Shown here: positions 3,011 through 49,423 of the stretch, piece by piece | Numbering within the stretch: the stretch's first letter is position 1 | Layout: every line of letters starts with the position of its first letter | Origin: Candidatus Shapirobacteria bacterium | GTDB taxonomy: Bacteria; Patescibacteriota; Microgenomatia; UBA12405 | DNA: 64,000 bases | Direction: 5' to 3' | NCBI GenBank assembly: GCA_041659325.1 | Contig: JBAZYN010000002.1 | Span: 140,906-204,905, forward strand | Made by a program: the position numbers and the translations under genes | Notes under the pieces: model-generated | Database searches by the model: none | The model's input: only the letters and a program-made list of their open reading frames with translations | What the model was told of the DNA's origin: nothing

Positions 3011-3721
3011 ATGCCGGTCGACCCATTAAAGATTGCGATTAAAGGAACAACTCAAGATCATCTGCCGATTGAGGATGTGATTGATGGGATTGTTCTTTTG
3101 AAGGACGGTTCGTGTGCCATGGTGATGCAACTGTCCTCGGTTAATTTTGATCTTTTGTCAGAAAGGGAGCAGTCGGCCCTGGTGTTTGCCTATGGGGGGA
3201 TTTTAAATTCATTGAATTTTCCGATTCAAATCGTAATCCAGACATCCACAAAAGATGTGACCTCGTATCTCAATAACCTAAAGGAGGCGGAGGGGAAACA
3301 GGTCAACACACTACTTCGGGAGCGAATTAAACAGTATCGGAAGTTTATAGAAGAGACAGTAAGAAAGAATGATGTGTTGTCAAAATCATTTTATGCGGTG
3401 GTTCCCTTTTCGATAATAGAGCTTGGGATTAAGTCAGCCTCGAAACAGATGGTGGGTAGCTTGCCTTTCATGAAACAACAAAGCGGTAGCTCCGGATTGC
3501 CGTTTACCAAAGAATATATTTTGGAAAAAGCAAAAGCGAGCCTGGAACCAAAGAGAGACCATTTGATAAGACTGTTCTCGCGGTTGGGACTGGAAATAAA
3601 AGTGTTGAATACAAAAGAATTAATCGAATTGTATTATAGGCTTTACAATGAAGAAACGGCCGCAAACCAAAAGATTCAGACGCTGAGTTACGGTACGCCG
3701 GTGGTTAATGCAAAAATATGA
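3011..3721 (+). CDS. VirB4 N-terminal-domain-like protein (short paralog of the VirB4 entry domain)
   Basis: No TM helix. The motif IEDVIDGIVLLKDGSCAMVMQLSSVNFDLLSEREQ parallels the DGLVSTKDIIAPGSLEV motif at the N-terminus of the downstream VirB4. Its stop overlaps the start of the next gene (ATGA). Confidence 0.4.
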   Translation: MPVDPLKIAIKGTTQDHLPIEDVIDGIVLLKDGSCAMVMQLSSVNFDLLSEREQSALVFAYGGILNSLNFPIQIVIQTSTKDVTSYLNNLKEAEGKQVNTLLRERIKQYRKFIEETVRKNDVLSKSFYAVVPFSIIELGIKSASKQMVGSLPFMKQQSGSSGLPFTKEYILEKAKASLEPKRDHLIRLFSRLGLEIKVLNTKELIELYYRLYNEETAANQKIQTLSYGTPVVNAKI

Positions 3722-9689: not shown

Positions 9690-9692
9690 CCT

Positions 9693-27406: not shown

Positions 27407-27468
27407 AGTGTCTATATTATACAGAAACAAAATAGGGGATAGAAATTGAATAGTGTTATAATTTTGGC

Positions 27469-29710: not shown

Positions 29711-31330
29711 TTATTTTGCGACATTTCTGATTGCATCCGAAGCCGCCTGAGCGCTTCCTGGGCCGAGAGTTCCTTCAATTAATCCGCCGACAATTCCTCT
29801 TGAAGCACCGGTCTTAGGATCTGCAATACTAGTGGCAGCTTTATTACCTATAAAGGATTTTCCGAATCTTGCAATTGGGTTTTTGCTTAAGTTTGTGCTT
29901 TCACCAATAGCCACTCCCCACGGAGATGGTTTAATCATAAAAATATACTGAGGGATCATATCGGGGAGCTTGGAAAGAAGCATAAGGCTAGCAAGACCAA
30001 CAGCGACGGGTAAAAGACCACCGGAGGGGATGGTGGCAAGATTTACCATGAATCCCACTAGTCCACCTGATTCTAAAAGTTGAGGCTTCCAGATACCGTA
30101 TTCGTGTCTGGTATTGTCAATGATTATGTTGGCTAAAACTAAAAACAATAGGGAAATAGGGAAAACGGAAATGTTGGCGACTAGTTGGAGTAACCAGGTG
30201 GAAAATCCTGTTTTCACATTGGGAAAAGCACCTATGCCGATGACAAAAGGAGCGGTAATAATTTGGAAAAGAATGGTGACGTAACATTTGACTAAGCCGA
30301 AATAAAATTTGACTTGCCAGATCATGACGGCAATGACGATAACCAAAAGCATGAAAACAGCTCCGATGGTTCCTCCTGTTAAGGCTCCTGCCGGTCCGGC
30401 TAATCCACCAACTATGGCTCCGATTACGCCACCCAGGGCGGCCAGAGAGGCCTTGGGGGCCATGCGGAGCATGAGGTCGCCGACAGTGGCCAATCCCGCT
30501 TCGGAAAAAAGCTTGAAAGTCCAACCTTCCTTGAGACCCAGGGCTTTTAGAATACCGCCAAAAAAATTTTGGTCAATTAGATTGTCGTCTAGATTAGTTT
30601 TTCCTGTAGCCTGATAAAGAACAGCGAGACCGAAAGACTGGAGGAAGATTGAAAGGTCGATTATTAGGCCGGCAATGGCATAGGAGAAAGTAACCAGGAT
30701 GAGAGTAATTATTACCTGGGGAATGGCGCTTTGAATGGTAATTACGGCTTGGGGGCTGATTTTGACCCGGAGCATGATCATAATGCCGATAATCACAAAT
30801 AGGAATGAGGAAATTAAATAGACAACATTTCGGAAACCTCGCCAAAGTGGGAGAATGGGCTGAAGACCATTGAAACCGATACCGACTCCCTGAGCATAGG
30901 CCGGTTTTCCCAAGAGATTATTTTTGAGCTGAGCAATATATTGAATTCCGGATGCCTGGGGGATATAGAGGGAAGCAGTCATGCGGTTTATGGAACCGAC
31001 CATGCCACCCGGGATATAACTGGTTTCCTCGCCTTTGAAAATGCCTTCCGGGATTTTATCGACCATACCTTCGATTACTCCGGTTGAAATACTGCCGAGG
31101 CTTTCCATGGTCCAACGTTCATTGTTGCCGCCGGCATCACGAGCATCCTGTTTTTTTTCGAGATAGGAGACTTCTTGGGCTTTGATTTTGGTAGTTAAAA
31201 TGGAGCTGCCAATGAGAAGAAAGGCGATTATAAGGAATTTTAGGACGGGAGAAATTTTGGGGATTATCCGATGCTCGCGACGGTTTAGCCAATTAAGGGT
31301 GGCTTTGATGTTCATAAAATATTTTAGCAT
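29711..31330 (-). CDS. VirB6/TrbL-like polytopic T4SS membrane protein
   Basis: At least 8 TM helices including Gly-rich AALGGVIGAIVGGLAGPAGALTGGTIGAV, and an N-terminal periplasmic region. Sits downstream of the pilin array and the secreted protein. Confidence 0.5.
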   Translation of the reverse strand: MLKYFMNIKATLNWLNRREHRIIPKISPVLKFLIIAFLLIGSSILTTKIKAQEVSYLEKKQDARDAGGNNERWTMESLGSISTGVIEGMVDKIPEGIFKGEETSYIPGGMVGSINRMTASLYIPQASGIQYIAQLKNNLLGKPAYAQGVGIGFNGLQPILPLWRGFRNVVYLISSFLFVIIGIMIMLRVKISPQAVITIQSAIPQVIITLILVTFSYAIAGLIIDLSIFLQSFGLAVLYQATGKTNLDDNLIDQNFFGGILKALGLKEGWTFKLFSEAGLATVGDLMLRMAPKASLAALGGVIGAIVGGLAGPAGALTGGTIGAVFMLLVIVIAVMIWQVKFYFGLVKCYVTILFQIITAPFVIGIGAFPNVKTGFSTWLLQLVANISVFPISLLFLVLANIIIDNTRHEYGIWKPQLLESGGLVGFMVNLATIPSGGLLPVAVGLASLMLLSKLPDMIPQYIFMIKPSPWGVAIGESTNLSKNPIARFGKSFIGNKAATSIADPKTGASRGIVGGLIEGTLGPGSAQAASDAIRNVAK

Positions 31331-31334: not shown

Positions 31335-33566
31335 TTATAAAGGTTGATCTGTATTTACTTTTTTCCAATCTTCAGGTTTCATGTAAAGATCGAAGAGGTT
31401 GCGGGCAGCGACGTCTTTCTGGCCAAAATCGCGGGTGATTTCCTCTTTACCGGTACTGGAATTAGGGGATTTATCCAATTCATATTTTTCCTGATCTTCG
31501 GCAGGAAGGCCGAGCTTGAGGTAACCAGTATCGGTTTTCAGATTGTCGACCAAGCTAGCGGGGAGAATGAGGGTGACCTCCTTTTCGCCGGAAAAAGTTT
31601 TTGCCTCATTTTCGACCACGCCGAAAAATTGGAGAATTTTTATCCAGAGGGTAAGGGGAGTGGGCTTGTCAACAGAAGGATCGCCGGGGCGATATTTGGT
31701 ACAAACCCATTCACTGGGTTCGGTTTGAAAAGAGGCATGATCTTCCTGAGGATTAAAAATTCCAAGAGCGTATGAAACCTGAAGGCTTGAGAGAACAGAA
31801 CCAAGGGGGATGGTCCGATCTTTTTTGGTTTCTTCGCCGGTTTCATCGTCTTTGATTAAAACTTGGGTGTTTATCGAACCACGGGGAACTATGGGCATCT
31901 GCCGGTAAAGGGTATCATAAGCGCTGTCGGAGAGGGGGGAGAAACTTTTTCCAAAGATTGATTGATAACCGCCGCCTTCGAATTGGTGAAGCATGATGGC
32001 AACGACGTCCCCAGGAAGAGGGATTTTTTTGAGGGTATAATTTACCGGCTTTTCGTAAGAGGTATTTATACCCCTTTTGTAATAATTCCAACCGACTTCA
32101 CATACCGTGACGGGACGGCAGGAGGCATCTGAGGGTTTGGGAAAAAGGTTTTTGGGGCCGTCGGGGCAACTCCAGGCAAGTTGTTCGTCGGTGGAAATAA
32201 CATCGTGGAGACCATCCAGGGAGCGGCAGGCATCTTCGATAAAGATTCCTTTGAGGTATAACTTATCGTCTTCGGTCATGTATCGGACAGTAGCATTGTC
32301 CCCCTGGTTGCCGTAGTTTAGAAATCTATCGTTGAGCTGTTCGGGGGTGGCGTTGAAATCCGGAGGCTGTTGTTTGGCGAGATGGATAGAGCTATTTCTA
32401 GGGCTTGGGTTAGTCTTCCTTTCATTTTTGATTTGTTCGATATCGTTTACTTCCTGTCTTTGATAGGTATTTCCGGCGCCGGAAACGCCGACACTGGCAA
32501 CTTTGGGGTTAATAGTTTCACTGGCAGAAACTTTGTAGGTACATGTGGAAAAATTTATTTCGTTAGAATTTGAATAAAATTTAGATGCCTTATCTTCGGG
32601 GTGTCGGGGGTCGGCTTCGTTTGGGACGCCTCGGACGGCCTCTTTTAGGTCAATGGGGGGGGGATAACCCCAGGATGTATTGGGATTGTAGATGGTAGCA
32701 TCGGGATCGATAGCACAGTTCTCGATGATGTCGTCGGGGCAATTGGCCTTGAGAGCATCGGTAACTTTGGGATTGGTGAGCCGCCAACTACCGGCATAGT
32801 TTCCGGGGGAGAAGGTAAAGAGGGTATAGGCAAGGATATCGCCTTGGCCCTGCCAGAAAGCAGTAATACCTTTACCGCAAAAGAATTTGATAAATTCGCA
32901 ATCGTCGTAAATAACTCCGCCGTTGTCGACGCCAACTTCGGTAAAAATAAACTGTTTGCCGGCAAGAGGACCCGAGCTGTAATTTTTGGCGGTATCTTCC
33001 CGATAAGGGTGATAGGAGATGATGGAAAAGCTGGGGCCGAAAGCAGCACTGGTTTTGGGGAAATTGGCGTTTTGAGGGTCCAGGGCAGGAGAGATAATTG
33101 GCCCTCTGGTCAGACAGGATTGTAATTTGGTAATAAAGCTATGGGCTCGTTCAATGGCGGCATCAAGACTGATTATGCCGCTTAAAGTTTCTCTTTCGTA
33201 ATCCTGTTCAAGTTCGTTGAAGGGTTCGATGTAGACGGTTTTGCCCGGAGCGTAAGAATTTATGACTCGGCACCAATCGTTGGCGGCTTGGGTTTGGCTG
33301 GCATCGTCGCTAAGCATTTTTTTGCCAATATTGGTCCAGTTGGCGTGGATGCGGATGACGACATTTGAGGCGGAAATATTTTCAAAGCGGGCCAAACCTT
33401 CGGGGGTTTCGGGGATGATGGTCATCCAGTTTTTGACGGCCGGATCGGCGACCCAATTGGCACTTGCTGGGTCATTGATAAGATTGATTCCAGGAGAGCC
33501 GGCGAAGGCAGGAGAGCTATTTAATAAGAAAAACAGAGTCAATAATCCGAAGAGACGTTTGAACAC
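31335..33566 (-). CDS. large secreted protein (signal peptide), possible glycoside-hydrolase-like fold
   Basis: Signal peptide MFKRLFGLLTLFFLLNSSPAFA. Co-directional and tightly spaced between the pilins and VirB6-like gene. Confidence 0.45.
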   Translation of the reverse strand: MFKRLFGLLTLFFLLNSSPAFAGSPGINLINDPASANWVADPAVKNWMTIIPETPEGLARFENISASNVVIRIHANWTNIGKKMLSDDASQTQAANDWCRVINSYAPGKTVYIEPFNELEQDYERETLSGIISLDAAIERAHSFITKLQSCLTRGPIISPALDPQNANFPKTSAAFGPSFSIISYHPYREDTAKNYSSGPLAGKQFIFTEVGVDNGGVIYDDCEFIKFFCGKGITAFWQGQGDILAYTLFTFSPGNYAGSWRLTNPKVTDALKANCPDDIIENCAIDPDATIYNPNTSWGYPPPIDLKEAVRGVPNEADPRHPEDKASKFYSNSNEINFSTCTYKVSASETINPKVASVGVSGAGNTYQRQEVNDIEQIKNERKTNPSPRNSSIHLAKQQPPDFNATPEQLNDRFLNYGNQGDNATVRYMTEDDKLYLKGIFIEDACRSLDGLHDVISTDEQLAWSCPDGPKNLFPKPSDASCRPVTVCEVGWNYYKRGINTSYEKPVNYTLKKIPLPGDVVAIMLHQFEGGGYQSIFGKSFSPLSDSAYDTLYRQMPIVPRGSINTQVLIKDDETGEETKKDRTIPLGSVLSSLQVSYALGIFNPQEDHASFQTEPSEWVCTKYRPGDPSVDKPTPLTLWIKILQFFGVVENEAKTFSGEKEVTLILPASLVDNLKTDTGYLKLGLPAEDQEKYELDKSPNSSTGKEEITRDFGQKDVAARNLFDLYMKPEDWKKVNTDQPL

Positions 33567-33588: not shown

Positions 33589-33975
33589 TTAGCCGGGGAT
33601 GAGGAACTTGGTGATGGCGACTCCGGTAAATTTTTCAATAAGACTGAGAATGAGCCAGGAACCAATGACACCAACCAGACCGAGGATGGCCATGGTAAGA
33701 GTGGAGGAAGCGGAGGCGATTTTTTTGGAATCGCCGCCGGAGAAAAGATAATTGTAGCCGCCGGAGATAAACATGTAGAAAAAAGCCAGACCGGCGAAGA
33801 AAACGATTACCTGGAGGACATTGTAGAAGAGACACTCTAGCCCTTGAATAGTGGCGACATCAGTGAAGTCTCCGCTACCAACACAGCGGGCGTCTTTGGT
33901 GGCCCATTCCTGAGTAGTTTGGGCGAGAATAGTGGAAGGATGGAATAAAAATAACATGAGAAACGCGATTAACAT
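33589..33975 (-). CDS. VirB2/TrbC-like T4SS pilin paralog 1
   Basis: Signal/TM1, then the loop GGDSKK, then TM2 (TLTMAILGLVGVIGSWLIL). The two-helix architecture is shared by all six tandem paralogs. Confidence 0.6.
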   Translation of the reverse strand: MLIAFLMLFLFHPSTILAQTTQEWATKDARCVGSGDFTDVATIQGLECLFYNVLQVIVFFAGLAFFYMFISGGYNYLFSGGDSKKIASASSTLTMAILGLVGVIGSWLILSLIEKFTGVAITKFLIPG

Positions 33976-34066
33976 ATGTGATTATAACATTTTGGTGGGG
34001 GGCAGGGAAAACAAAAACCTCCCCCGATTTTGTCGGGAGAGGTTTTGAATTTCAACTAAGAGCAAA

Positions 34067-34450
34067 TTACCAGGCTTTGATTTCGAGGTTGAGGATATCG
34101 ACACCAAAGATGACGTTGATTAGTCTCATGATGGCGAAAGCGGCAAAGACGATAGCCAGACCAATCAGACCATTGGTGATTTGGGCACGGGCAGCGGCGA
34201 CTTTTTTCTCGTCACCCTCGGAAGTTACCCACTTGAGACCACCCATGATAAGAATAAAGAAGAAAACTAAAGCAACTACAAGCATGACCAGGCTGATGGC
34301 TCCGGAGACAATTCTGCCGACGGTGAGAGCCTGAAGATCGCCCCACTGAGATCCTTCTTGGGGGCCGACAGTAATTTTACCGTCGTCTGCAGCGTATAAG
34401 GGAGCGGCAATCACGGCATAGGTGATTTTGTTTTTTATTTTGGTGAACAT
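34067..34450 (-). CDS. VirB2/TrbC-like T4SS pilin paralog 2
   Basis: TM1 LVMLVVALVFFFILIMGG, then SEGDEKK, then TM2 GLIGLAIVFAAFAIM. Confidence 0.6.
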   Translation of the reverse strand: MFTKIKNKITYAVIAAPLYAADDGKITVGPQEGSQWGDLQALTVGRIVSGAISLVMLVVALVFFFILIMGGLKWVTSEGDEKKVAAARAQITNGLIGLAIVFAAFAIMRLINVIFGVDILNLEIKAW

Positions 34451-34519
34451 ATGTTTTTGTTCTATTTTTACATTAATTGATAATTTATTTAGAATATTGT
34501 ATCAGTTTGCAAATTAAAA

Positions 34520-34888
34520 TCAAAGAGTTGGTACGGGAAGAGATAAAGTTTGAAGAGAAGTGATGCCGAAAACAATACCAATAACTTTTAAGATGGCAAA
34601 AACCGAGAAGGAGGCAATTAACCCGACTAGGGCATAGGTGAGTTGTTTTTGGGCTTCTTCGATTTTTTTAGGGTCACCGCTTGAGTCAATGTAGTGGTAG
34701 GAACCCATTAAGAAATGCCAAATAAAATAGAGAACGGCGACAAGCATAAAAACAGAAAGTATCCCCCGGACAATGCGGTCGAAATAACCTATAGGGTCAC
34801 TGACCTGAACTGAGCTGCCGCAGTCGGGATTTAGGAGCTTGTTGCAAATGACGGCATAGGCCGGTTTGACGAGTTGAAAATTTATCAT
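34520..34888 (-). CDS. VirB2/TrbC-like T4SS pilin paralog 3
   Basis: TM1 VFMLVAVLYFIWHFLMG, then SSGDPKK, then TM2 ALVGLIASFSVFAIL. Confidence 0.6.
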   Translation of the reverse strand: MINFQLVKPAYAVICNKLLNPDCGSSVQVSDPIGYFDRIVRGILSVFMLVAVLYFIWHFLMGSYHYIDSSGDPKKIEEAQKQLTYALVGLIASFSVFAILKVIGIVFGITSLQTLSLPVPTL

Positions 34889-34893
34889 ATGAT

Positions 34894-35259
34894 CTATAGA
34901 TGAAGATCGTTTAGTAACGTGTCCAGATTGAAGATGTTTTCGAGTCCTAGAATTTTGCCCAGAAGAGAGCCGAGGCCGACGGCAAAAATAACGATAGCGA
35001 TACCGAGAATGCCGTTGGTGATTTTGTGGCGAGCTTCTTCGAGTTTTTTCTCGTCGCCTTTGGAGGACATAAAGGCATAGCCGGCGAAGACGGTTTGGAT
35101 AGTAAAATAAATTAAGGCAACAACGGAAAGCATGCCAAGAACAACGCTGACGGTATTTTCGAGATTAGTGGTGGCTTGGGTGCCATCCTTGGGTACTATT
35201 CCCGGGCCGACATAGGGATCGTAAGCGATGGCGAGAAGTCTAGTCATTAGGGCCATAGA
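34894..35259 (-). CDS. VirB2/TrbC-like T4SS pilin paralog 4
   Basis: Start taken at the internal MALMTRLL, because the longest ORF to 35394 would overlap paralog 5 by ~155 nt. TM1, then SKGDEKK, then TM2. Confidence 0.5.
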   Translation of the reverse strand, partial: SMALMTRLLAIAYDPYVGPGIVPKDGTQATTNLENTVSVVLGMLSVVALIYFTIQTVFAGYAFMSSKGDEKKLEEARHKITNGILGIAIVIFAVGLGSLLGKILGLENIFNLDTLLNDLHL

Positions 35260-35674
35260 CGTTTGGAGTAAGAATGGGTATGCCGGTAATACGCTCAATA
35301 ACACCGGCGAGGGTGAAGGCAGAGGCAATGATGATAATCCCCAGGATACTTTGCCAGATTTTTGCCCAGGCAGCTTCGGTTTTTTTGGAATCACCGCCGG
35401 CGGTGATATATTCGTAGCCGGCCAATATTACCTGGATGATAAAGAAAAGACCGCCGATGGTGCCGGCAAGTTTAAAGATGTTGCCAATTAAAAGAAAAAT
35501 ACCGCCTTCTTCAAAGTAAGGGTTGCCGTCTATGGGGGGCTTGATGGTGCCGATGATGGGGCTGCCACCGCCTCCGGGGTCAACGGCGGCTTGGACGATT
35601 GAGGGTTTAAAAAAGTGGATTAAGGATTTCAAGTCCGGTAATAACTTGTATGATTTGGATGATGGAATAGGCAA
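35240..35674 (-). CDS. VirB2/TrbC-like T4SS pilin paralog 5
   Basis: TM1 GGLFFIIQVILAGY, then AGGDSKK, then TM2 ILGIIIIASAFTLAGVI. Start uncertain, since the longest ORF overlaps paralog 6 by 68 nt. Confidence 0.5.
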   Translation of the reverse strand: MPIPSSKSYKLLPDLKSLIHFFKPSIVQAAVDPGGGGSPIIGTIKPPIDGNPYFEEGGIFLLIGNIFKLAGTIGGLFFIIQVILAGYEYITAGGDSKKTEAAWAKIWQSILGIIIIASAFTLAGVIERITGIPILTPNVYGPND

Positions 35675-35939
35675 AAACGACTACTCCGAATCCGATAAAC
35701 GAGCTAGTTATGGCTTGTTGCCCCTGGGCAGCTTTTTTTGGGTCACCATTACCTGCACCAATTATATAGGTAACACCGCCGAAAATCAAAAGGCCGAGGA
35801 GGACGGTTCCGGCGATAGTGATGGAGTTTTTCAGAATGATATTGACAATTACGCTAAAAGTCGGATAGCTTCCGCCGAGGGTATTGCCCCCACCAAGGGG
35901 GGTATCTTTTATGTCTACAGCAGCTAGCAAGCGATTCAT
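35607..35939 (-). CDS. VirB2/TrbC-like T4SS pilin paralog 6
   Basis: TM1 TIAGTVLLGLLIFGGVTYIIG, then GNGDPKK, then TM2 FIGFGVVVFAYSIIQII. Confidence 0.6.
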   Translation of the reverse strand: MNRLLAAVDIKDTPLGGGNTLGGSYPTFSVIVNIILKNSITIAGTVLLGLLIFGGVTYIIGAGNGDPKKAAQGQQAITSSFIGFGVVVFAYSIIQIIQVITGLEILNPLF

Positions 35940-36072
35940 GAACTAATTATACTGTTTGGTGATACTGACTGCAAGGATTATTGATATAATTTTTCTGTAT
36001 TGAATGGGAAAAATGATGTTATAATACGCCACAATTTATCCCTTATATTAATTTATAATTTCCCCCTAAAAC

Positions 36073-36882
36073 ATGAGAAAATATATTTGTTTTGGTGTTT
36101 TTGCTCCGGTGTTGGCGCTGAGTTTGTTTTTGGCTTTCGGGTGTTTACCGATACAGGCGGCATCCGGTAACGGATATTTACTGGAGTCGGTGCAATTACA
36201 GGAAAACTCGGGATTTGGATTTTTGAATTTTGGGAAAACAATGGTTCGGATGGCTATAGATAAGGGAATCGAACCCAATTTGATTGTGATGCTGCTGTTG
36301 CTACCGTTGGTGGCGACATTGGTGTCGGTACTGCATTATGTGTTTGGACTTTCAGGGTATGGGATTTTTATGCCGACAATGATTGCAGTGACATTTTTGG
36401 CAACAGGGATTATAGGGGGACTATTGTTGTTTGCGATGATTTTGATGATATCAATTTTTGGAGGACTGGCTTTGCGGAAACTAAAACTTCACTTTTGGCC
36501 GGCGAGATCGATTAATTTATTGTTGATTTCGGTGGGGACCTTTGGGCTGATGCTGATTTCTTCTTCGGTACAGATAATCGATATCAGTAATATTTCGATA
36601 TTTCCGGTACTATTTATGATAATGCTGTGTGAGGAATTTGTGCGGACACAATTGGTGAAGAGTAGAAATGAAGCCCAGAGATTAGCAGTTGGGACGTTGG
36701 TGCTGGCAATCATTGGGGCGGTGACGATGAACGTTCCGGAAGTGCAAAGATTGGTAATTTTGAACCCCGAATGGGTAATACTAATAGTACTGGTAGTAAA
36801 TTTGGGGGTAGGAAACTACACCGGAATTAGACTGTCTGAGGTAAAAAGATTTAAAAAGGCGATCAGAAAGAAAAATGTTTAA
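36073..36882 (+). CDS. 7-TM membrane protein (7TM module of ATP-grasp peptide-modification systems)
   Basis: Seven predicted TM helices. Its stop overlaps the start of the following ATP-grasp gene by 8 nt. Confidence 0.5.
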   Translation: MRKYICFGVFAPVLALSLFLAFGCLPIQAASGNGYLLESVQLQENSGFGFLNFGKTMVRMAIDKGIEPNLIVMLLLLPLVATLVSVLHYVFGLSGYGIFMPTMIAVTFLATGIIGGLLLFAMILMISIFGGLALRKLKLHFWPARSINLLLISVGTFGLMLISSSVQIIDISNISIFPVLFMIMLCEEFVRTQLVKSRNEAQRLAVGTLVLAIIGAVTMNVPEVQRLVILNPEWVILIVLVVNLGVGNYTGIRLSEVKRFKKAIRKKNV

Positions 36883-38212
36883 TTTGAAAGAGTACAAGCA
36901 GTTTTTGACAAAAAATGAGAGAAATAAGGTGTATTTGAGAAAGAATACGGCCGGGGCGAGAATGGTTGCCGATAGCAAGCTAAAAACAAAGAGGCTTCTA
37001 ATGAAATCGGGGGTAGGGGTACCGAAGCTGATTGCCAGGTTTAGAAATCAAGAAGAACTGACGGCGTTTAAATGGGAAAAGCTAGAAGGTAATTTTGTGA
37101 TTAAGCCGGTTTCCGGGTATGGAGGAGAGGGGATTCTGATAATCCGGAGAAGGGGTAAGTGGGCGGGAGATTGGCAAAAGATGAACGGAGAGATGGTTAA
37201 TACTAAAGATATAAAACGACATTGCCAGGAGATTTTGGGAGGACGGTACAGCTTGTACGGGATGCCTGATTATGTGTTGGTCGAGGAGAGAGTAAAGATT
37301 CATCCATTATTTTTGTCAATTACCAGGTCGGGGACGCCGGATGTGAGGGTGATTGTTTACAATAGGGTACCAGTGATGGCGATGCTGCGGGTGCCGACTG
37401 ATAAAAGCGGAGGGAAGGCAAATCTGCAACAAGGGGCGATAGGCCTCGGGATTGATTTGGCCACCGGGATTACAACATTCGGGATTGAGGGCAAGGGGGG
37501 GCAGATTGAAAAGATTTATGACTATGGGAAAAAACGGAAAAGAAAAGTTAACGGGATTAAGATCCCTTTTTGGAGAGAGATTTTGGAGACGGCGATAAAA
37601 GTACAAATGTCGATTGAGGGACTTGGATTTATAGGAGTGGATATCGTGCTTGATAAGGAAAAAGGGCCGATGATTTTGGAGGTAAATGCTAGACCGGGAC
37701 TGTCAATTCAGTTGTGTAATAAGGCAGGGCTGAAATCGAGAATTGAAAAGATTGAAGGGATGGATGTCCGGAGTGTGGATCACGGAATAACTTTGGCAAA
37801 GTATTTGTTTGGAGAGAGTTTTTTTGAAAAAGTAGAAGAAAAGGAGAAAGCAAAAACGGTAGGACCTTTGGAAATGATTAAAATTAAGTTGGGGAAGGGC
37901 AAAAAGCTAGTAAAAGAAGTCAGAGCGAAGATTGATACAGGAGCATTCAGAAGCTCGATTGACAGAAGTTTGGCGGAAAGTTTGGGATTATTGTCTGACG
38001 AAAGGGTGTTGTATTATCGGCATTATCGATCATCTTTGGGAAAGCATAAAGACAGGCCGGTGATTGGGTTGACTTTTTGGCTTAAAGGGAAAAAGGTGGT
38101 AACGGCGGTGAATGTAGCCGACAGACATAAATTGAGAACGAAATTTCTGTTGGGGAGAAAAGATCTGGAGGGTTTTTTGGTTTCGGCAAAAAAACAAAAT
38201 GAAAAACAATAA
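36875..38212 (+). CDS. RimK-related ATP-grasp ligase fused to a C-terminal retropepsin-like protease (RimB/DUF785-type, DTGA active site)
   Basis: ATP-grasp core FVIKPVSGYGGEGILII ... GFIGVDIVLDKEKGPMILEVNARPG. The C-terminal 110 aa contain AKIDTGAFRSSID (D-T-G-A) and GRKDLEGFLV, like the stand-alone protease encoded beside rimK in other bacteria. Confidence 0.6.
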   Translation: MFNLKEYKQFLTKNERNKVYLRKNTAGARMVADSKLKTKRLLMKSGVGVPKLIARFRNQEELTAFKWEKLEGNFVIKPVSGYGGEGILIIRRRGKWAGDWQKMNGEMVNTKDIKRHCQEILGGRYSLYGMPDYVLVEERVKIHPLFLSITRSGTPDVRVIVYNRVPVMAMLRVPTDKSGGKANLQQGAIGLGIDLATGITTFGIEGKGGQIEKIYDYGKKRKRKVNGIKIPFWREILETAIKVQMSIEGLGFIGVDIVLDKEKGPMILEVNARPGLSIQLCNKAGLKSRIEKIEGMDVRSVDHGITLAKYLFGESFFEKVEEKEKAKTVGPLEMIKIKLGKGKKLVKEVRAKIDTGAFRSSIDRSLAESLGLLSDERVLYYRHYRSSLGKHKDRPVIGLTFWLKGKKVVTAVNVADRHKLRTKFLLGRKDLEGFLVSAKKQNEKQ

Positions 38213-38312
38213 CTCAAATAAACGAAATAATTTTCAATATAATTTTTTTCGCTGTGAATGTGTTGCCACGTTCAACGCTCTAAAAATTACATTTTCAAAT
38301 TATTTTTAATAT

Positions 38313-39437
38313 ATGAAAAATAAAAAAATAGCAATATTTTTTGGAGGAAAGATCACCCATCACCTGAGGCTGCTGAGGATGGCGGCGAGGAAACTCCGGG
38401 TACAGCTGGATCTGGTTTCTTATAATAGGGTTTGTTTTGAAGCGGGTAAGGGGGTATATATAAGAGGAGATAAGGCCAGGATGAACGAAACCTGGGAAGT
38501 TTCGGAATATGACGTGTTGTTTTTCAGAACGACGGGGAAACACTGGGAAGAAGTAAGTTTAATTTTGGATGCTGTGAAAGGGAAGGACATAACGGTGGTT
38601 GACCCTTTGGTAAAAAATGGGAGGCCGTCTGATGCCTGTAAGGCTTATCAAATGCTGGAGTTGGCTAAGGCAGGCATAGGGGTGCCAAAAACAATATACG
38701 GAAGTTTGTGGTATCTGTATGAGATGATGAAAAATAAGACACAGTTTTCTGATCAGCATTTTTTTTCCTCCGGTGAATGTGGTGCCACGTTCAATGTTGT
38801 AAAAAAAACACTGATGACGAAAGCTGATTTGGATCAGAAAAATTTATTGGCTTCGGACTTTGCGTTGGATTTTAATTTTCCGATAATTTTGAAGGGGAGC
38901 GGGGGGGATAGGGGGAGCCGGGTGTTTAAAATTGATAACCTGGAAGAGATGGAAAAGATGGTGCGGGCATTGAGGAAATCCGAGACGGTAGAGGGTAAGC
39001 GATATATGGTTCAAAAATTTATCCCGAACAGCGGTGATTATCGGCTGCTGATTTTGGGCGAGAAAGTGCTGGGAGTGATGAAAAGAAGCAGCCAAAGTAT
39101 TGAGGAGTTTCGTAATAATTATTCGGTGGGGGGAAAGGTGGAAGTGGCGGATTTGCCGGAGTCAATAAAAAAGATGGCAGTGAAGGCGGCAAAAGTTTGT
39201 GGATTGATGGTGGCGGGGGTGGATGTGATGGAAAAGCCAAAATCTAATAGTCTTAAAGTCTTAAAATCTGAAAGTCTGAAAGTCAAAAGTCGAAGTTTTG
39301 AGGATGGGGAAATGAGTGGGGATTCTAATGATTATGTGGTGCTGGAAGTGAATAAGGGGCCACAGTTTAGGGGATTTATGGAAGCGACGGGAATTGATGT
39401 ACCGAAAGAAATCATTAAATTTTTAATAAGTTTATAA
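38313..39437 (+). CDS. RimK-like ATP-grasp ligase (paralog 2) with an in-frame repeat insert
   Basis: IILKGSGGDRGSRVF, LLILGEKVLGVMKR and YVVLEVNKGPQF. An AGTCNNAA array is inserted at 39241-39294, giving KSNSLKVLKSESLKVKSRS. Confidence 0.65.
   Translation: MKNKKIAIFFGGKITHHLRLLRMAARKLRVQLDLVSYNRVCFEAGKGVYIRGDKARMNETWEVSEYDVLFFRTTGKHWEEVSLILDAVKGKDITVVDPLVKNGRPSDACKAYQMLELAKAGIGVPKTIYGSLWYLYEMMKNKTQFSDQHFFSSGECGATFNVVKKTLMTKADLDQKNLLASDFALDFNFPIILKGSGGDRGSRVFKIDNLEEMEKMVRALRKSETVEGKRYMVQKFIPNSGDYRLLILGEKVLGVMKRSSQSIEEFRNNYSVGGKVEVADLPESIKKMAVKAAKVCGLMVAGVDVMEKPKSNSLKVLKSESLKVKSRSFEDGEMSGDSNDYVVLEVNKGPQFRGFMEATGIDVPKEIIKFLISL
39241..39294. repeat. AGTCNNAA array (A2, in-frame in RimK-like paralog 2)
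   Basis: aatctaat agtcttaa agtcttaa aatctgaa agtctgaa agtcaaa agtcgaag. Confidence 0.85.
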
Positions 39438-39520
39438 GTTAATGTGTATAATCAAATTTTTGCAGTGCTTCCGCCAGAGGCGGACTCCGCTCAGCTTCGC
39501 ACGCACTTTGCTTGACATGA

Positions 39521-40564
39521 TTGCGCGCGAAAAATCTTTATGTTTCGTCAAAATGTATAAATTATAAAAATATGAATAAAAAAATAATTACATTTACAAT
39601 GTCGCTGAAACAAAGTCAGTTTGAGGTTGATAGGTTGGAGCAAGAGGCAAAAAAGTTGGGAGTGGAGGTGAACAGGGCGCTTTATCGGGAGTTGAGCTTT
39701 GATTTGAACGAGAGAAGTAGGGTGTTTGTCAAAGGGGAGGAGGTGACGAAAGAGAATACTTTGGGGATGTGGTTTAGAGTAGCGGGGACGATAAGCGGAA
39801 AATATACGGAGGGGAGAAATATGGCGATAAGATTACTACAGGACAGGATTTTTTGTGCTAACCATGCGGGTTATTTGGGGTGGACGAGAATGGGGAAGAT
39901 TGCTCAACACGCGGTATTTTTGGAGAATCAAATTCCCGTAGTCGCGACTAAAATTTTTTATACTAAAGAGCAGGTATTAAATCCCTCTAAATCTCCCTTT
40001 GACAAGGGAGACTTGGGTTTGGGATGGCCTATGATTGCTAAGCATGAGAGAGGGTATCAGGGGAAATCGGTAAGAAAGTTTGAGAACTTTTTGGAATTAG
40101 AGAAATTTGTGATGAAAATGGACGAGATTAATGTGGGGATGTTTTTGTGGCAAAGGTATTTGCCGACAAAATGGGATATCCGAGTGATTGTTCTGGACGG
40201 AAAGGTAATCGGGGCGATGAAGAGGATGGCAAGAGGGAATGAATTCAGAAGTAATTATAGCCTGGGTGGGGCGGTGGAGGCTTGGGATTTGTCGGATAGT
40301 GACAGGATTTTGGCTGAGAAAGTGGCAAAGGTTTGCGGACTGGACTATTGCGGGGTGGATATAATGAAGAGTCCGAAATCCCTCTCTCCAACTAAAGTTG
40401 GAGCCTCCCCCTTTGAGGAAAGGGGGATTTTCAAAGAAGAAGATTATGATAGTTATATTTTGGAGGTGAATAGGCAGTGCCAATTTAAGGGGTTTGAGGA
40501 AGCAACCGGAATTAATGTAGCAAAAGCAGTGGTGGAGATGTTTTTGAAGAGAAATTCAGGGTAA
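39521..40564 (+). CDS. RimK-like ATP-grasp ligase (paralog 3) with two in-frame palindromic-element inserts
   Basis: WPMIAKHERGYQGKSV, VIVLDGKVIGAMKR and YILEVNRQCQF. The inserts NPSKSPFDKGDLGLG (39979-40013) and SPKSLSPTKVGASPFEERGIF (40376-40431) coincide with GC-rich hairpin elements. The true start may be MNKKIITF at 39572. Confidence 0.65.
   Translation: MRAKNLYVSSKCINYKNMNKKIITFTMSLKQSQFEVDRLEQEAKKLGVEVNRALYRELSFDLNERSRVFVKGEEVTKENTLGMWFRVAGTISGKYTEGRNMAIRLLQDRIFCANHAGYLGWTRMGKIAQHAVFLENQIPVVATKIFYTKEQVLNPSKSPFDKGDLGLGWPMIAKHERGYQGKSVRKFENFLELEKFVMKMDEINVGMFLWQRYLPTKWDIRVIVLDGKVIGAMKRMARGNEFRSNYSLGGAVEAWDLSDSDRILAEKVAKVCGLDYCGVDIMKSPKSLSPTKVGASPFEERGIFKEEDYDSYILEVNRQCQFKGFEEATGINVAKAVVEMFLKRNSG
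39979..40013. repeat. palindromic element (P3), in-frame in RimK-like paralog 3
   Basis: aatccctctaaaTCTCCCTTTGACAAGGGAGActt, identical to P5. Confidence 0.85.
40376..40431. repeat. compound palindromic element (P4), in-frame in RimK-like paralog 3
   Basis: aaatccctctctCCAACTAAAGTTGGagcctCCCCCTTTGAGGAAAGGGGGattt. It contains two hairpins. Confidence 0.75.
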
Positions 40565-44337: not shown

Positions 44338-44411
44338 GGGTGATTAGCTCAGTTGGTTAGAGCACCGTCCTGATAAGACGGGGGTCAATAGTTCGAGTCT
44401 ATTATCACCCA
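44338..44411 (+). tRNA. tRNA-Ile (anticodon GAT)
   Basis: Acceptor GGGTGAT/ATCACCC, D-loop TAGCTCAGTTGGTTAGAGC, anticodon stem CCGTC/GACGG with loop cTGATaa, and T-arm GGTTCGAGTCT. Confidence 0.85.
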
Positions 44412-44764
44412 CATATGGGCGAGAGTTATTGTGAACAAGTAAAGGGTGGGGGTATGAGGCTATGTTACAATTAAGCTATGAGTAGGTTTACTGTATTGAA
44501 GGTGTTTTGTTTCTTTGCGGCGGTGGGATTGATTGCTTTTGGAAGTGTGGAAAATGTAGGGCGAACGATAAAATTTGCTTTTGAAAAGTTTAATCGGTAA
44601 GTGAAATTTGTCTTATTGACGAATTAACCGTATTTAGGTAGAATAGGAACACTTGCGGATGTTGACGAATAAGAAATATAAGTTCAAAAATTTTTGAGGA
44701 AGTAGTATTTTTGAACTCATAGGGCCGCAAGATGCGGCTCTTTTTATTTTTGGACTAAGGCCTT

Positions 44765-44838
44765 GGGCCTGTGGCTTAGTTGGTTATAGCGCTTCATTTG
44801 CAATGAAGAGGTCGGGAGTTCGACTCTCCCCAGGTCCA
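44765..44838 (+). tRNA. tRNA-Ala (anticodon TGC) with G3:U70 identity pair
   Basis: Acceptor GGGCCTG/CAGGTCC (G3·U70), anticodon stem CTTCA/TGAAG with loop tTTGCaa, and T-arm GGTTCGACTC. Confidence 0.85.
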
Positions 44839-44907
44839 CAACGTAAGAACGTACAATTTTGCAAAGCAAAACGTTACGTCCAACGTTGTTAGGATAAATC
44901 CACAACT

Positions 44908-44946
44908 AAGTCTGAAAGTTCAAAAGTCTTAAAGTCTTAAAGTTGA
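44908..44946. repeat. AGTCNNAA array (A3, spacer between tRNA-Ala and 23S)
   Basis: agtctgaa agttcaaa agtcttaa agtcttaa agttgagg. Confidence 0.8.
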
Positions 44947-45664: not shown

Positions 45665-45750
45665 AGTCTAAAAGTTGCAAGTCTAAAAGTCTAAAAGTAA
45701 AAAAATACTTTAAAGACCTTGGACTTTAAGACTTTCGACTTAGAGCGCGG
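45665..45750. repeat. AGTCNNAA array plus its inverted copy forming a long hairpin inside 23S rRNA (A4)
   Basis: agtctaaa agttgcaa agtctaaa agtctaaa agtaaaaaaa, then tactttaaagaccttggactttaagactttcgactt, which is the reverse complement of another 8-mer array. Confidence 0.8.
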
Positions 45751-49305: not shown

Positions 49306-49423
49306 TTTCGGTCACTGGAGCGAGGTGGAACCACCTTTTCCCATTTCGAACAGAGAAGTGAAACGCCTCAGCGCTGACAATAGGCTTCCCACAAGGGACT
49401 TTGAAGATAGGTCGTGGCCGAAA
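49306..49423 (+). rRNA. 5S rRNA
   Basis: CCCATTTCGAACAGAGAAGTGAAACGCCTCAGCGCTGA matches the conserved 5S loop C/helix III core. The terminal helix is TTCGGTCAC/GTGGCCGAA. Confidence 0.75.

What the first reader, a model, noticed from the sequence alone, without database searches (positions are those of the whole stretch)
33589..40564. Six tandem VirB2-like pilin paralogs divergently adjacent to a 7TM protein plus three RimK-type ATP-grasp ligases, one fused to a retropepsin-like (DTGA) protease: candidate pilin-processing/peptide-ligation system
On the minus strand there are six consecutive small proteins (110-144 aa) with the same architecture: signal/TM1, a G-G-D-x-K-K loop, then TM2. This is the fold of T4SS VirB2/TrbC pilins, and they are followed by a secreted 743-aa protein and a VirB6-like protein. 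Across a 133-nt divergent promoter region lies an operon encoding a 7TM protein, an ATP-grasp amidoligase fused to a C-terminal aspartyl-protease-like domain (AKIDTGAFRSS), and two further RimK-like ATP-grasp paralogs. From established knowledge, RimK adds C-terminal glutamates to a protein substrate, rimK operons elsewhere include a DUF785 retropepsin-like protease, and 7TM plus ATP-grasp plus protease neighbourhoods have been predicted to be peptide-modification systems. Conjugative VirB2/TrbC pilins need C-terminal processing and, in some systems, head-to-tail cyclisation. The inference is that this cluster may mature or tail-modify the adjacent pilins (protease trimming plus ATP-dependent amide ligation), or may modify a ribosomal protein as RimK does. 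A protease-ligase fusion beside a pilin array is, to my knowledge, undescribed.
Basis: partly seen in the sequence, partly recalled or inferred. Interest (0 to 1): 0.8.

Follow-up and report, generated by a model that had tools for sequence, protein, structure and literature searches.

The report
Pilin array beside Rlo-like peptide-ligase operon
In a Candidatus Shapirobacteria chromosome, six secretion-system pilin genes sit back to back with an operon for a membrane-tethered peptide ligase and protease; both gene sets are variants of known kinds, and their adjacency holds in one bacterial clade only, so the proposed pilin-maturation role is unproven.

Summary
Six minus-strand genes (33589-35939) are PF18895 T4SS pilins. 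Across 133 nt lies an operon: a 7TM_transglut protein, an ATPgrasp_ST (RloC-like) ligase fused to a C-terminal retropepsin (RimB/RloA-like, DTGA), and two RimK-like ligases. The host is Ca. Shapirobacteria (Patescibacteria).

Both parts have published relatives: Patescibacteria VirB2-like pilin arrays (Microb Genom 2025), the RloABC operon (mBio 2025), and the RimK/RimB system with its RimBK protease-ligase hybrid (JBC 2025). The fusion protein occurs in thousands of sequence clusters and at least 477 species genomes.

The pilin/ligase junction is invariant in 61 of 61 Shapirobacteria-clade species loci with enough flank. In a sister lineage two extra pilin genes directly follow the RimK gene. 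All pilin-adjacent loci form one clade. In 22 of 24 other fused-type loci, and in five distant Patescibacteria lineages, the same 7TM-ligase-protease core has no pilins nearby and sits by ruvC/ruvA, mnmA or cell-wall genes.

Best reading: a self-contained Rlo/Rim-type module that makes and trims acidic peptide tails at the membrane, placed next to a pilin cassette by clade-specific synteny. Pilin modification remains possible (about 0.2). This is a new variant of known kinds, of moderate interest.

The parts
27469..29700 (+). 743-aa cytoplasmic protein of unknown family. It travels with the pilin cassette.
   Evidence: No Pfam or NCBIfam hit and no TM segment or Walker A motif. Its 695-aa counterpart in L092 is inverted together with the cassette.
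29711..31330 (-). 539-aa polytopic membrane protein of the pilin cassette (VirB6-like role possible, not shown).
   Evidence: 9 hydrophobic segments. It is conserved next to the pilins in 61 loci. Only 1 of 29 homologues hits PF04610 TrbL at E 8.6e-4, and a profile search of PDB sequences found nothing.
31335..33566 (-). 743-aa secreted protein, GH5-like glycoside hydrolase candidate.
   Evidence: N-terminal signal-like sequence; FNELE and FTEVG motifs (read by eye). Its homologue in L005/L006 (907 aa) hits PF00150 Cellulase + PF01464 SLT. No Pfam hit for the window copy itself.
33589..33975 (-). T4SS-type pilin paralogue, position 6 (farthest from the ligase operon).
   Evidence: PF18895 E 5.7e-6. 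Signal peptide and a conserved Cys pair. The AF2 model shows a helical hairpin, residues 43-77 and 83-117.
34014..34046 (-). Terminator-like hairpin (14-bp stem) between pilin 5 and pilin 6.
34067..34450 (-). T4SS-type pilin paralogue, position 5.
   Evidence: PF18895 E 5.1e-6. Mean identity to positional orthologues is 64%.
34520..34888 (-). T4SS-type pilin paralogue, position 4.
   Evidence: PF18895 E 6.2e-7. Conserved ICNP...C motif in the N-terminal part.
34894..35256 (-). T4SS-type pilin paralogue, position 3. The ORF extends to 35394; the likely start is ATG 35256.
   Evidence: PF18895 E 4.7e-5, 23.8 bits against a gathering score of 26.6; weak PF04956 TrbC hit. Alignment.
35240..35632 (-). 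T4SS-type pilin paralogue, position 2. The ORF extends to 35674; TTG 35632 is a plausible start.
   Evidence: PF18895 E 5.4e-9. Start judged from the sequence and from orthologue lengths.
35607..35939 (-). T4SS-type pilin paralogue, position 1 (nearest the ligase operon).
   Evidence: PF18895 E 8e-8.
36017..36032 (+). Conserved extended -10 element, TGTTATAATACGCCAC, the likely promoter of the ligase operon.
   Evidence: TATAATACG is present in 62 of 74 orthologous intergenic regions. Sequence.
36073..36882 (+). 7TM membrane protein: the RloB-like 7TM module without the inactive transglutaminase domain.
   Evidence: PF14402 E 1e-24. It matches only positions 315-506 of NF052267 RloB. It overlaps the next gene by 8 nt. 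7TM-ATPgrasp_ST fusions exist elsewhere (P0240, P0266).
36875..38212 (+). RloC-like ATP-grasp amidoligase (about aa 1-315) fused to a RimB/RloA-like retropepsin domain (about aa 325-440, DTGA at 354-357).
   Evidence: PF14397 E 7e-65 and PF05618 E 7e-7; TIGR02291 E 3e-80. AF2 pLDDT 85. Best folds are RimK 5zct/5zk6/7qys and ArgX/LysX. The retropepsin part hits PDB 9g59. K77, D256, E269, N271 and T355 are invariant, and D354 is nearly invariant.
38313..39437 (+). RimK-like ATP-grasp ligase, paralogue 1.
   Evidence: PF08443 E 3e-25. TIGR00768 scores 121.8 bits, below the cut-off of 143.4. 40% identical to paralogue 2 over 189 aa.
39521..40564 (+). RimK-like ATP-grasp ligase, paralogue 2.
   Evidence: PF08443 E 3e-27. 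TIGR00768 scores 119.2 bits, below the cut-off. The closest solved sequences are RimK 5zct/4iwx/7qys, E about 1e-12.
3718..6231 (+). VirB4/TraG-type T4SS ATPase. This is context: it lies about 27 kb from the pilin array, next to dnaA/dnaN.
   Evidence: PF19044 P-loop_TraG E 7e-31, plus AAA_10 and DUF87.

Best explanation
Two separable gene sets lie back to back in a Ca. Shapirobacteria chromosome, roughly 20 kb from dnaA/dnaN.

(i) A Patescibacteria-type T4SS-like cassette. It holds six anciently diverged VirB2-like pilin paralogues in fixed order, a secreted GH5-like hydrolase, a polytopic membrane protein and a 743-aa cytoplasmic protein.

(ii) A self-contained Rlo/Rim-type amidoligase-peptidase operon. 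Proposed mechanism:
- The 7TM protein holds the RloC-like ATP-grasp enzyme at the cytoplasmic face of the membrane.
- That enzyme and the two RimK-like ligases use ATP to add alpha-linked acidic residues (most likely Glu) to a carboxylate acceptor, either a protein C-terminus or a growing free oligopeptide.
- The fused retropepsin domain, dimerising through the ligase oligomer, cleaves such acidic tails. This sets their length or releases peptides, as RimB does for RimK.
- The 7TM partner couples the product to the cell envelope.

Shown here: the domain families, the folds, conservation of catalytic residues, the gene fusions linking 7TM, ligase and peptidase, and the distribution of gene neighbourhoods. 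Inferred: the substrate, the product and the direction of coupling to the membrane.

The module is not a dedicated pilin-maturation system. Its position beside the pilins is synteny inherited within one clade.
For: Families and folds:
- The ATP-binding Lys and the D...E-x-N Mg-site residues are invariant, and K-x-D-T-G-A is nearly invariant, across 45 fusion proteins.

Gene fusions that tie the parts into one machine:
- 7TM_transglut-ATPgrasp_ST (P0240, P0266).
- ATPgrasp_ST-retropepsin-MATCAP carboxypeptidase (P0130, P0136, P0138).
- ATPgrasp_ST-retropepsin with a second ATP-grasp domain (P0161).

Distribution:
- The core 7TM + fusion + RimK/ATP-grasp is conserved in five distant Patescibacteria lineages without pilins. 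Neighbours there include ruvC/ruvA/ruvB, a PBP, FemAB, a Mur ligase, MurL and MATCAP. mnmA is a neighbour in L087, L105 and L125.
- 22 of 24 further fused-type loci with at least 4 kb upstream have no pilin hits.
- All pilin-adjacent loci form a single clade in a neighbour-joining tree.

Experimental precedent:
- RimK makes poly-alpha-Glu and glutamylates S6. RimB trims the tails and stimulates RimK, and a RimBK hybrid is proteolytically active (PMC11957791).
- RloA cleaves runs of 8 or more Glu, and loss of rloB or rloC suppresses the rloA1-3 phenotypes (PMC12239564).
- Disruption of an RloB homologue alters membrane-vesicle production in a screened bacterium (PMC12096838).
Against: - The pilin/ligase junction is invariant in 61 of 61 species loci, while the other flank of the operon is highly variable: at least 18 gene clusters among 46 loci.
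- In lineage L092/L093 two PF18895 pilin genes follow the RimK gene on the same strand, with an 8-nt gap or an 11-nt overlap. That looks operonic and hints at a real functional tie in this clade.
- No substrate or product is identified.
- The Glu specificity is inferred from distant homologues (15-20% identity in the fold matches).
- The two RimK-like proteins score below NCBIfam cut-offs.
- Some distant fusions have lost the catalytic Asp (A or N), so the protease role is not universal.
Confidence: 0.55

Rival explanations
1. In the Shapirobacteria-related clade, the ligase/peptidase module has been recruited to the T4SS-like cassette. It would post-translationally modify a pilin (for example the cytoplasmic GDxKK loop, or the protein before membrane insertion) or another cassette protein, or supply a peptide needed for pilus assembly.
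For: - The divergent junction is conserved in 61 of 61 species loci, 57 of them with exactly six pilins, whereas the downstream flank is variable.
- Adjacency survives an in-place inversion of the cassette in L092.
- Two extra pilin genes are apparently co-transcribed with the RimK gene in L092 and L093.
- The 7TM tether puts the ligases at the membrane, where pilins reside.
Against: - The adjacency is monophyletic, so a single origin followed by inheritance explains it.
- An in-place inversion cannot separate neighbours, so surviving it carries little weight.
- The core module is widespread without nearby pilins.
- The wider conserved block also contains evidently unrelated genes: FtsH, a methyltransferase and DUF6909.
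- The pilin C-termini are inferred to be extracellular and are not acidic.
- The GDxKK loop is invariant among this window's six paralogues and is not obviously specific to this clade (not tested).
- Promoter elements for the two directions look separate.
Confidence: 0.2
2. The module adds amino acids to a cell-envelope precursor rather than to a protein: a lipid-linked peptidoglycan stem peptide or a sugar-acid polymer. The 7TM protein would handle the lipid-linked or exported substrate.
For: - Neighbours in other lineages include a PBP (Transgly + Transpeptidase), FemAB, a Mur ligase, MurL, a glycosyltransferase and uppS.
- A YdjC (sugar deacetylase-like) domain is fused to the ligase-retropepsin in P0129.
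- GH18 genes lie downstream in many clade loci.
- Pfam names PF14397 'sugar-transfer associated'.
- Rlo mutants in Pseudomonas show cell-shape, beta-lactam and hypo-osmotic phenotypes (PMC12239564).
Against: - These neighbours vary between lineages and include housekeeping genes (ruvABC, mnmA), so they may be incidental.
- The fused retropepsin and MATCAP peptidases point to peptide or protein tails.
- The closest folds are RimK and ArgX/LysX, which act on protein C-termini.
Confidence: 0.15
3. This is a classical RimK/RimB system. [quoted passage not shown]
For: - RimK is the closest solved relative of the RimK-like paralogues and of the fusion's fold.
- The retropepsin is RimB-like and cytoplasmic, as in RimBK (PMC11957791).
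Against: - Both paralogues score far below the S6-Glu ligase equivalog (49.9 and 55.6 bits against a cut-off of 331) and below the RimK family cut-off.
- The obligatory 7TM partner, which is fused to the ligase in some genomes, has no place in ribosome modification.
- Three ligases would be redundant for S6 tailing.
- rpsF is not in the window, and its C-terminus could not be examined.
Confidence: 0.08

Closest known systems
RloABC operon of Pseudomonas aeruginosa (Lormand et al., mBio 2025, PMC12239564)
   Same: Both combine an ATPgrasp_ST/TIGR02291-type cytoplasmic ligase (RloC), a 7TM_transglut membrane protein (RloB) and a DTG retropepsin of the PF05618 family (RloA) in one operon. The Lys two residues before the catalytic Asp is kept (AK-I/M-DTGA).
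   Different: Here the retropepsin has no signal peptide and is fused to the C-terminus of the ligase, so it is cytoplasmic. The 7TM protein lacks the inactive transglutaminase domain (it matches RloB positions 315-506 only). Two extra RimK-like ligases are present. The gene order differs, and the host is a monoderm Patescibacterium. The paper reports 96% of RloB sequence hits coming from Proteobacteria.
RimK/RimB and the RimBK hybrid (Little et al., JBC 2025, PMC11957791; PLoS Genet 2020, PMC7343187)
   Same: A RimK-family ATP-grasp ligase is paired or fused with a cytoplasmic retropepsin that trims poly-Glu. The principle of a protease-ligase fusion is the same.
   Different: RimBK has RimB at the N-terminus and a genuine RimK at the C-terminus. 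Here the order is ligase then protease, and the fused ligase belongs to the RloC/ATPgrasp_ST subfamily. A 7TM partner is obligatory. The RimK-like paralogues fall below the family cut-offs. S6 as a target was not tested.
VirB2-like pilin arrays of Patescibacteria (Microb Genom 2025, PMC12102498)
   Same: Tandem PF18895 pilins. That paper reports 441 arrays of 2-11 genes, especially in Microgenomatia, averaging 25% identity within an array. This array has six genes at 22-26% identity. A VirB4 gene lies near dnaA, as that paper describes.
   Different: That paper does not mention ATP-grasp genes. Here the six paralogues are positional orthologues across at least 57 species, which argues for distinct fixed roles rather than rapid variation. 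The array lies about 27 kb from virB4.
Tubulin tyrosination/glutamylation cycle (TTL/TTLL ATP-grasp ligases with MATCAP/CCP peptidases); an analogy from established knowledge
   Same: An ATP-grasp ligase that writes C-terminal or side-chain amino-acid tails is paired with peptidases that erase them. Relatives of this fusion carry a MATCAP domain (PF08014) in the same polypeptide or as the next gene.
   Different: The tubulin cycle is a eukaryotic cytoskeletal system. There is no MATCAP in this window and no known target here.
VirB2/TrbC pilin maturation (signal peptidase, TraF-type cyclisation); established knowledge
   Same: Small two-helix pilins that can be processed at their termini.
   Different: Known maturation takes place outside the cytoplasm, is ATP-independent and uses serine peptidases. 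No ATP-grasp enzyme or retropepsin is involved.

Membership tests
T4SS pilin (Pfam PF18895; VirB2/TrbC-like) | Match to the family HMM at or above the gathering score. | tested here: met
   Five of six score above 26.6 bits (26.7-36.4). The sixth scores 23.8 bits (E 4.7e-5) and also has a weak TrbC hit.
T4SS pilin (Pfam PF18895; VirB2/TrbC-like) | A small protein with two hydrophobic helices joined by a short basic loop. | tested here: met
   Hydropathy analysis, the invariant G-D-x-K-K loop and the AF2 helical hairpin.
T4SS pilin (Pfam PF18895; VirB2/TrbC-like) | Structural similarity to solved VirB2/TraA pilins. | tested here: inconclusive
   Foldseek against PDB gave no match with E below 0.8. 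A helical hairpin is too generic a shape.
T4SS pilin (Pfam PF18895; VirB2/TrbC-like) | Genomic association with VirB4 and VirB6. | tested here: inconclusive
   A VirB4-like ATPase is in the window but about 27 kb away. The adjacent polytopic protein is VirB6-like in only 1 of 29 homologues.
T4SS pilin (Pfam PF18895; VirB2/TrbC-like) | Polymerises into a pilus. | not testable with these tools
   Needs microscopy or biochemistry.
RloABC system | RloC-type ATP-grasp ligase (PF14397 / TIGR02291). | tested here: met
   PF14397 scores 219 bits against a cut-off of 31.4. TIGR02291 has E 3e-80, but its 269.5 bits are below the equivalog cut-off of 314.2.
RloABC system | [quoted passage not shown] | tested here: not met
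   Only the 7TM part is present (PF14402; RloB positions 315-506). There is no transglutaminase domain.
RloABC system | RloA: a secreted stand-alone retropepsin with a signal peptide. | tested here: not met
   The domain is fused to the C-terminus of the cytoplasmic ligase and has no signal peptide.
RloABC system | Poly-Glu cleavage, and genetic suppression by loss of rloB/rloC. | not testable with these tools
   Experimental.
RimK/RimB (and the RimBK hybrid) | RimK-family alpha-L-glutamate ligase (TIGR00768; S6-Glu ligase PRK10446). | tested here: not met
   TIGR00768 scores 121.8 and 119.2 bits against a cut-off of 143.4. PRK10446 scores 49.9 and 55.6 bits against 331. Only the Pfam RimK domain is above threshold.
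RimK/RimB (and the RimBK hybrid) | Retropepsin with a catalytic D-T/S-G. | tested here: met
   AKIDTGA at residues 351-357. D354 is nearly invariant and T355/G356 invariant in 45 sequences. Hit to PDB 9g59.
RimK/RimB (and the RimBK hybrid) | RimBK architecture: N-terminal RimB, C-terminal RimK. | tested here: not met
   The order is reversed, and the fused ligase is of the ATPgrasp_ST type.
RimK/RimB (and the RimBK hybrid) | The target is ribosomal protein S6 with a C-terminal Glu-Glu. | not tested
Graspetide (RiPP) ATP-grasp maturases | Match to maturase families and an adjacent precursor peptide with a leader and core. | tested here: not met
   TIGR04187 scores 24.9 and 15.3 bits against a cut-off of 350. 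No candidate precursor was seen, and the gaps between operon genes are only 84-100 nt.

The most novel reading that the evidence does not exclude
In Shapirobacteria and sister Microgenomatia lineages, an Rlo/Rim-type ligase-peptidase module has been captured by the T4SS-like cassette. It would reversibly add amino-acid (Glu) tails to a pilin or another cassette protein at the cytoplasmic face of the membrane. This would be the first ATP-grasp-based modification of a conjugative-type pilin, and a control point for the epibiotic contact apparatus of these bacteria.
Probability: 0.15. Interest if true: 0.75.

Novelty: new variant of a known kind. Interest (0 to 1): 0.4.

Why it matters
- Patescibacteria have tiny genomes, yet this ligase-protease-7TM module is kept in thousands of them and is unusually conserved: 62-78% identity across 80 Shapirobacteria-clade species loci. 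It probably serves a core envelope or homeostasis function.
- It extends the recently defined Rlo/Rim systems, which the Rlo authors described as found mainly in Proteobacteria, to a monoderm candidate phylum. There it appears in a fused, cytoplasmic form that may be easier to study biochemically: one polypeptide carries both the writer and the eraser.
- The gene fusions catalogued here (7TM-ligase, ligase-retropepsin-MATCAP, and ligase-retropepsin with a second ATP-grasp domain) argue that all components act on one substrate at the membrane. That sharpens hypotheses for the still unknown Rlo substrate in pathogens.
- If the clade-specific link to the pilin cassette proved functional, it would reveal a new kind of pilin modification in organisms whose T4SS-like genes are essential for their host-dependent lifestyle.

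Tried and rejected
1. DUF6909 protein (25709-27565) as the missing VirB4: rejected. It has no Walker A motif and no PDB sequence hit. The real VirB4-like gene is at 3718-6231.
2. Foldseek of the pilin model against PDB: uninformative, because a helical hairpin matches unrelated coiled coils at E above 0.8.
3. Profile search of the polytopic-protein alignment against PDB sequences, and Pfam on all 29 members: nothing convincing, only a single weak TrbL hit.
5. The first genome scan, with an 18-sequence alignment, failed because no stretch was conserved enough. The successful scan returned only the 80 closest species. More distant contexts had to come from protein look-ups and a metagenome scan.
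6. The retropepsin as a pilin leader peptidase: rejected. Pilin N-terminal leaders are not conserved; some orthologues start directly at the mature-like sequence, for example L063 position 4, 'MAICNP'. The same domain occurs in lineages without adjacent pilins.
7. A genome-encoded acidic acceptor or poly-Glu substrate near the operon: none found. No protein in the window ends in Glu-Glu, and the longest acidic run is 5 residues.
8. A shared operator in the divergent intergenic region: only separate -10-like elements were found.
9. The Iyer et al. 2009 amidoligase paper (PMC3268129) is not held, so its predictions are cited from memory only.
10. The last homologue search was left unused. The top hits of any query from this locus would again be the same clade.

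Full report
**1. What is there**

On the minus strand, six small ORFs between 33589 and 35939 all match Pfam PF18895 (T4SS_pilin), with E-values from 5e-9 to 5e-5. Five exceed the gathering score; one scores 23.8 against 26.6 bits. They are 22-26% identical to each other. They share two hydrophobic helices and an invariant G-D-x-K-K loop. An AlphaFold model of one shows the expected helical hairpin. Two ORF starts are over-called, and realistic sizes are about 110-130 aa.

Downstream of the array on the same strand lie two genes. One encodes a secreted 743-aa protein with GH5-like motifs; its 907-aa homologue in relatives hits Cellulase + SLT. The other encodes a polytopic membrane protein with 9 predicted TM segments. 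Its VirB6 affinity is weak: 1 of 29 homologues hits TrbL at E 8.6e-4.

Across the 133-nt intergenic region the plus strand encodes four proteins:
- A PF14402 7TM_transglut protein (E 1e-24). It matches only the 7TM half of RloB and has no transglutaminase domain.
- A 445-aa protein whose N-terminal 300 residues are PF14397 ATPgrasp_ST / TIGR02291 (E 7e-65 / 3e-80) and whose C-terminal 120 residues are a PF05618 retropepsin with AKIDTGA.
- Two RimK-like ATP-grasp proteins. They are 40% identical to each other over 189 aa. Their Pfam RimK domain has E of about 1e-25 to 1e-27, but they score below the NCBIfam RimK cut-offs.

**2. Organism and wider context**

The fusion protein is 100% identical to a protein of a Candidatus Shapirobacteria MAG, from a 335-kb contig (lineage). 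The window also holds dnaA, dnaN and yidC at 11-15.6 kb. A VirB4/TraG-type ATPase lies at 3718-6231, followed by a 1144-aa M23-peptidase protein. This fits the published observation that Patescibacteria place T4SS genes near the replication origin (PMC12102498). That paper already describes VirB2-like arrays of 2-11 genes, especially in Microgenomatia, averaging 25% identity within an array. It never mentions ATP-grasp genes. The DUF6909 protein next to the cassette is not an ATPase.

**3. The ligase operon is a variant of known systems**

NCBIfam names led to the RloABC operon of Pseudomonas aeruginosa. It comprises the secreted retropepsins RloA1-3, which cleave runs of at least 8 Glu; RloB, an inactive transglutaminase fused to 7TM; and RloC, a cytoplasmic ATP-grasp protein. 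Loss of rloB or rloC suppresses the hypo-osmotic, antibiotic-resistance, biofilm and cell-shape defects of the protease triple mutant (PMC12239564).

The related RimK/RimB pair polyglutamylates and trims ribosomal protein S6. A RimBK protease-ligase hybrid from Desulfotalea has been purified and shown to be proteolytically active (PMC11957791). A protease-ligase fusion as such is therefore not new.

Three differences mark the present architecture:
- The ligase precedes the protease.
- The fused ligase is of the RloC type.
- The protease is cytoplasmic.

The AlphaFold model of the fusion is confident (pLDDT 85). Its best structural matches are RimK (5zct, 5zk6, 7qys) and ArgX/LysX, enzymes that extend protein C-termini. 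The retropepsin part aligns with PDB 9g59, including the Lys two residues before the catalytic Asp. The ATP-grasp catalytic residues are invariant, and the K-x-D-T-G-A motif is nearly so, across 45 homologues. Some distant fusions have replaced the Asp with A or N.

**4. How common is the fusion, and what is it fused to elsewhere**

- More than 7000 clusters in the 5.8-billion-protein collection match at E <= 1e-10. The top 120 are 70-100% identical.
- 477 stretches in the species-level genome collection encode a relative.
- An exhaustive representative search found 2057 cluster representatives at E up to 0.001. Fused forms go down to about 36% identity.

Other architectures were found:
- Forms of about 790-916 aa in which a MATCAP-type carboxypeptidase domain follows the retropepsin.
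- Forms with a C-terminal YdjC domain.
- Forms with a second ATP-grasp domain.
- Proteins in which 7TM_transglut, with or without a transglutaminase core, is fused in front of ATPgrasp_ST.

These fusions show that the 7TM protein, the ligase and the peptidases work as one physical unit, with the ligase on the cytoplasmic side of the membrane.

**5. Is the pilin adjacency conserved**

*Within the clade: yes.* In the 80 closest species-level genome loci (62-78% identity), every one of the 61 with at least 2.7 kb upstream of the 7TM gene carries at least five divergent pilins, and 57 carry exactly six. Truncated contigs carry as many pilins as fit (my own HMMs, cross-checked against precomputed Pfam annotation).

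The six paralogues are positional orthologues. Mean identity to the same position is 45-64%, against 28-40% to other positions.

The flank on the other side of the operon is a variable region, with at least 18 different first-downstream gene clusters in 46 loci. The junction is therefore more stable than its surroundings. On the pilin side, however, the conserved block also includes FtsH, a methyltransferase and DUF6909.

*Outside the clade: no.* Five distant Patescibacteria lineages have the same core of 7TM + fusion + RimK or ATP-grasp (+ MATCAP), with no PF18895 gene within 9 kb. These include a Moranbacteria-labelled lineage and one labelled Pacearchaeota. Their neighbours are ruvC/ruvA/ruvB, a PBP, FemAB, a Mur ligase, MurL, a glycosyltransferase or mnmA.

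A metagenome scan added 80 loci. Of 24 fused-type loci with at least 4 kb upstream, 22 have no pilin hits. All 14 proteobacterial-type RloB-RloC loci with that much flank also lack them.

A neighbour-joining tree of the fusion places all pilin-adjacent loci in a single clade: the Shapirobacteria clade, L137/L131 and L092/L093. Its sister clade is pilin-free (a crude distance tree, and the metagenome loci carry no taxonomy).

*One observation favours a real tie.* In L092 the whole cassette is inverted in place. In both L092 and L093 two additional PF18895 genes follow the RimK gene on the same strand, with an 8-nt gap or an 11-nt overlap, before a convergent uppS.

**6. Can the ligases reach the pilins**

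- Positions 4 and 6 carry conserved Cys pairs in their N-terminal parts, which places the N-terminus outside the cell. With two TM helices, the GDxKK loop is then cytoplasmic and the C-terminal tail extracellular. This is an inference from topology rules.
- A cytoplasmic ATP-grasp enzyme could therefore reach only the loop, or the protein before insertion.
- No pilin ends in Glu, and no protein in the window carries an acidic run longer than 5 residues or a Glu-Glu C-terminus.
- Pilin N-terminal leaders are not conserved, and some orthologues lack one, which argues against a dedicated leader peptidase.
- The divergent region holds a conserved extended -10 element for the ligase operon (TGTTATAATACGCCAC; its TATAATACG core is found in 62 of 74 loci). 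A separate -10-like element faces the pilins. No shared operator is obvious.

**7. Verdict**

Its position beside the pilin cassette is inherited within one clade.

I estimate the alternatives as follows:
- Independent module: about 0.55.
- Clade-specific functional coupling to the cassette: about 0.2.
- An envelope-precursor substrate: about 0.15.
- Classical S6 modification: about 0.08.

Both halves are variants of recently described kinds, so the finding is of moderate interest. The most valuable points are three:
- Rlo-like systems extend to Patescibacteria in a fused, cytoplasmic form.
- The fusion catalogue ties the 7TM protein, the ligases and the peptidases together.
- The untested possibility of pilin modification remains open in this clade.

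Noticed in passing
window 1-64000: GC skew on the plus strand is extremely high (0.15-0.47 per 2 kb; 0.30 overall). Third-codon-position skew is +0.50 in plus-strand genes and -0.55 in minus-strand genes read in their own orientation, so G greatly exceeds C on the plus strand whatever the gene direction. There is no sign change around dnaA/dnaN. The same holds for 64 orthologous loci (mean 0.29), while proteobacterial loci are near 0.
   Followed up: partly
window 2038-10709: A T4SS ATPase cluster sits beside the replication genes. It holds a VirB4/TraG-type ATPase (3718-6231), a 1144-aa protein with a C-terminal M23 peptidase (6255-9689), and unassigned ORFs at 3011-3721 and 9693-10709. It is next to dnaN (11097-12221, -) and dnaA (12528-13883, -).
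   Followed up: partly
window 44338-49423: tRNA-Ile, tRNA-Ala, a full-length 23S rRNA (45077-47994) and a 5S rRNA (49307-49423) are present with no 16S gene upstream. A LAGLIDADG homing-endonuclease ORF (48075-48659, PF03161 E 3e-42) lies between the 23S and 5S genes.
   Followed up: partly
window 41837-44302 and 55652-63767: An 821-aa cohesin/dockerin protein carries long PTNTPW(I/V)(R/Q) tandem repeats. Further on, two large proteins hit Dockerin_1 (57957-59381, 61259-63091). These two and neighbouring unassigned ORFs end in similar C-terminal motifs (WKVGFLGR, WKVGFSER, KVGFLAGR, WRWLGWCR). The cassette protein at 27469-29700 ends in ARWLGRK. This could be a shared sorting signal.
   Followed up: no
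window 25709-27565 (-): The DUF6909 protein (PF21850, E 1e-157) is conserved next to the pilin cassette in many relatives. It has no Walker A motif. By eye its C-terminal part resembles nucleoside phosphorylases (EMESGPY).
   Followed up: partly
window 34014-34046 (-): A strong terminator-like hairpin (14-bp stem followed by a T-run) sits between the fifth and sixth pilin genes. It suggests attenuation or separate transcription of the last pilin.
   Followed up: no
L092 12229-12902; L093 8034-8675: In a sister lineage (fusion 58% identical to the window's), two extra PF18895 pilin genes directly follow the RimK gene on the same strand, before a convergent uppS. In L092 the six-pilin cassette is inverted relative to the window.
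   Followed up: yes
P0130, P0136, P0138, P0129, P0161, P0240, P0266; L087 10297-11253: Relatives fuse the ligase-retropepsin to a MATCAP-type carboxypeptidase, a YdjC domain or a second ATP-grasp domain, or fuse 7TM_transglut in front of the ligase. In L087, MATCAP is a separate gene directly after the fusion. Several distant fusions have lost the catalytic Asp of the retropepsin (A or N).
   Followed up: partly
L010, L011, L015 and others; L061: Many genome records carrying this typical Shapirobacteria locus are titled 'uncultured Gammaproteobacteria bacterium', and one is titled 'Candidatus Methanoperedens sp.'. These are apparently mislabelled or mis-binned MAGs.
   Followed up: no
L105 16124-18295 (-): In a pilin-free sister-clade locus, a T4SS coupling-protein-like gene (TrwB_AAD_bind, TraG-D_C) lies about 4 kb downstream of the ligase module. 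This is probably coincidental.
   Followed up: no
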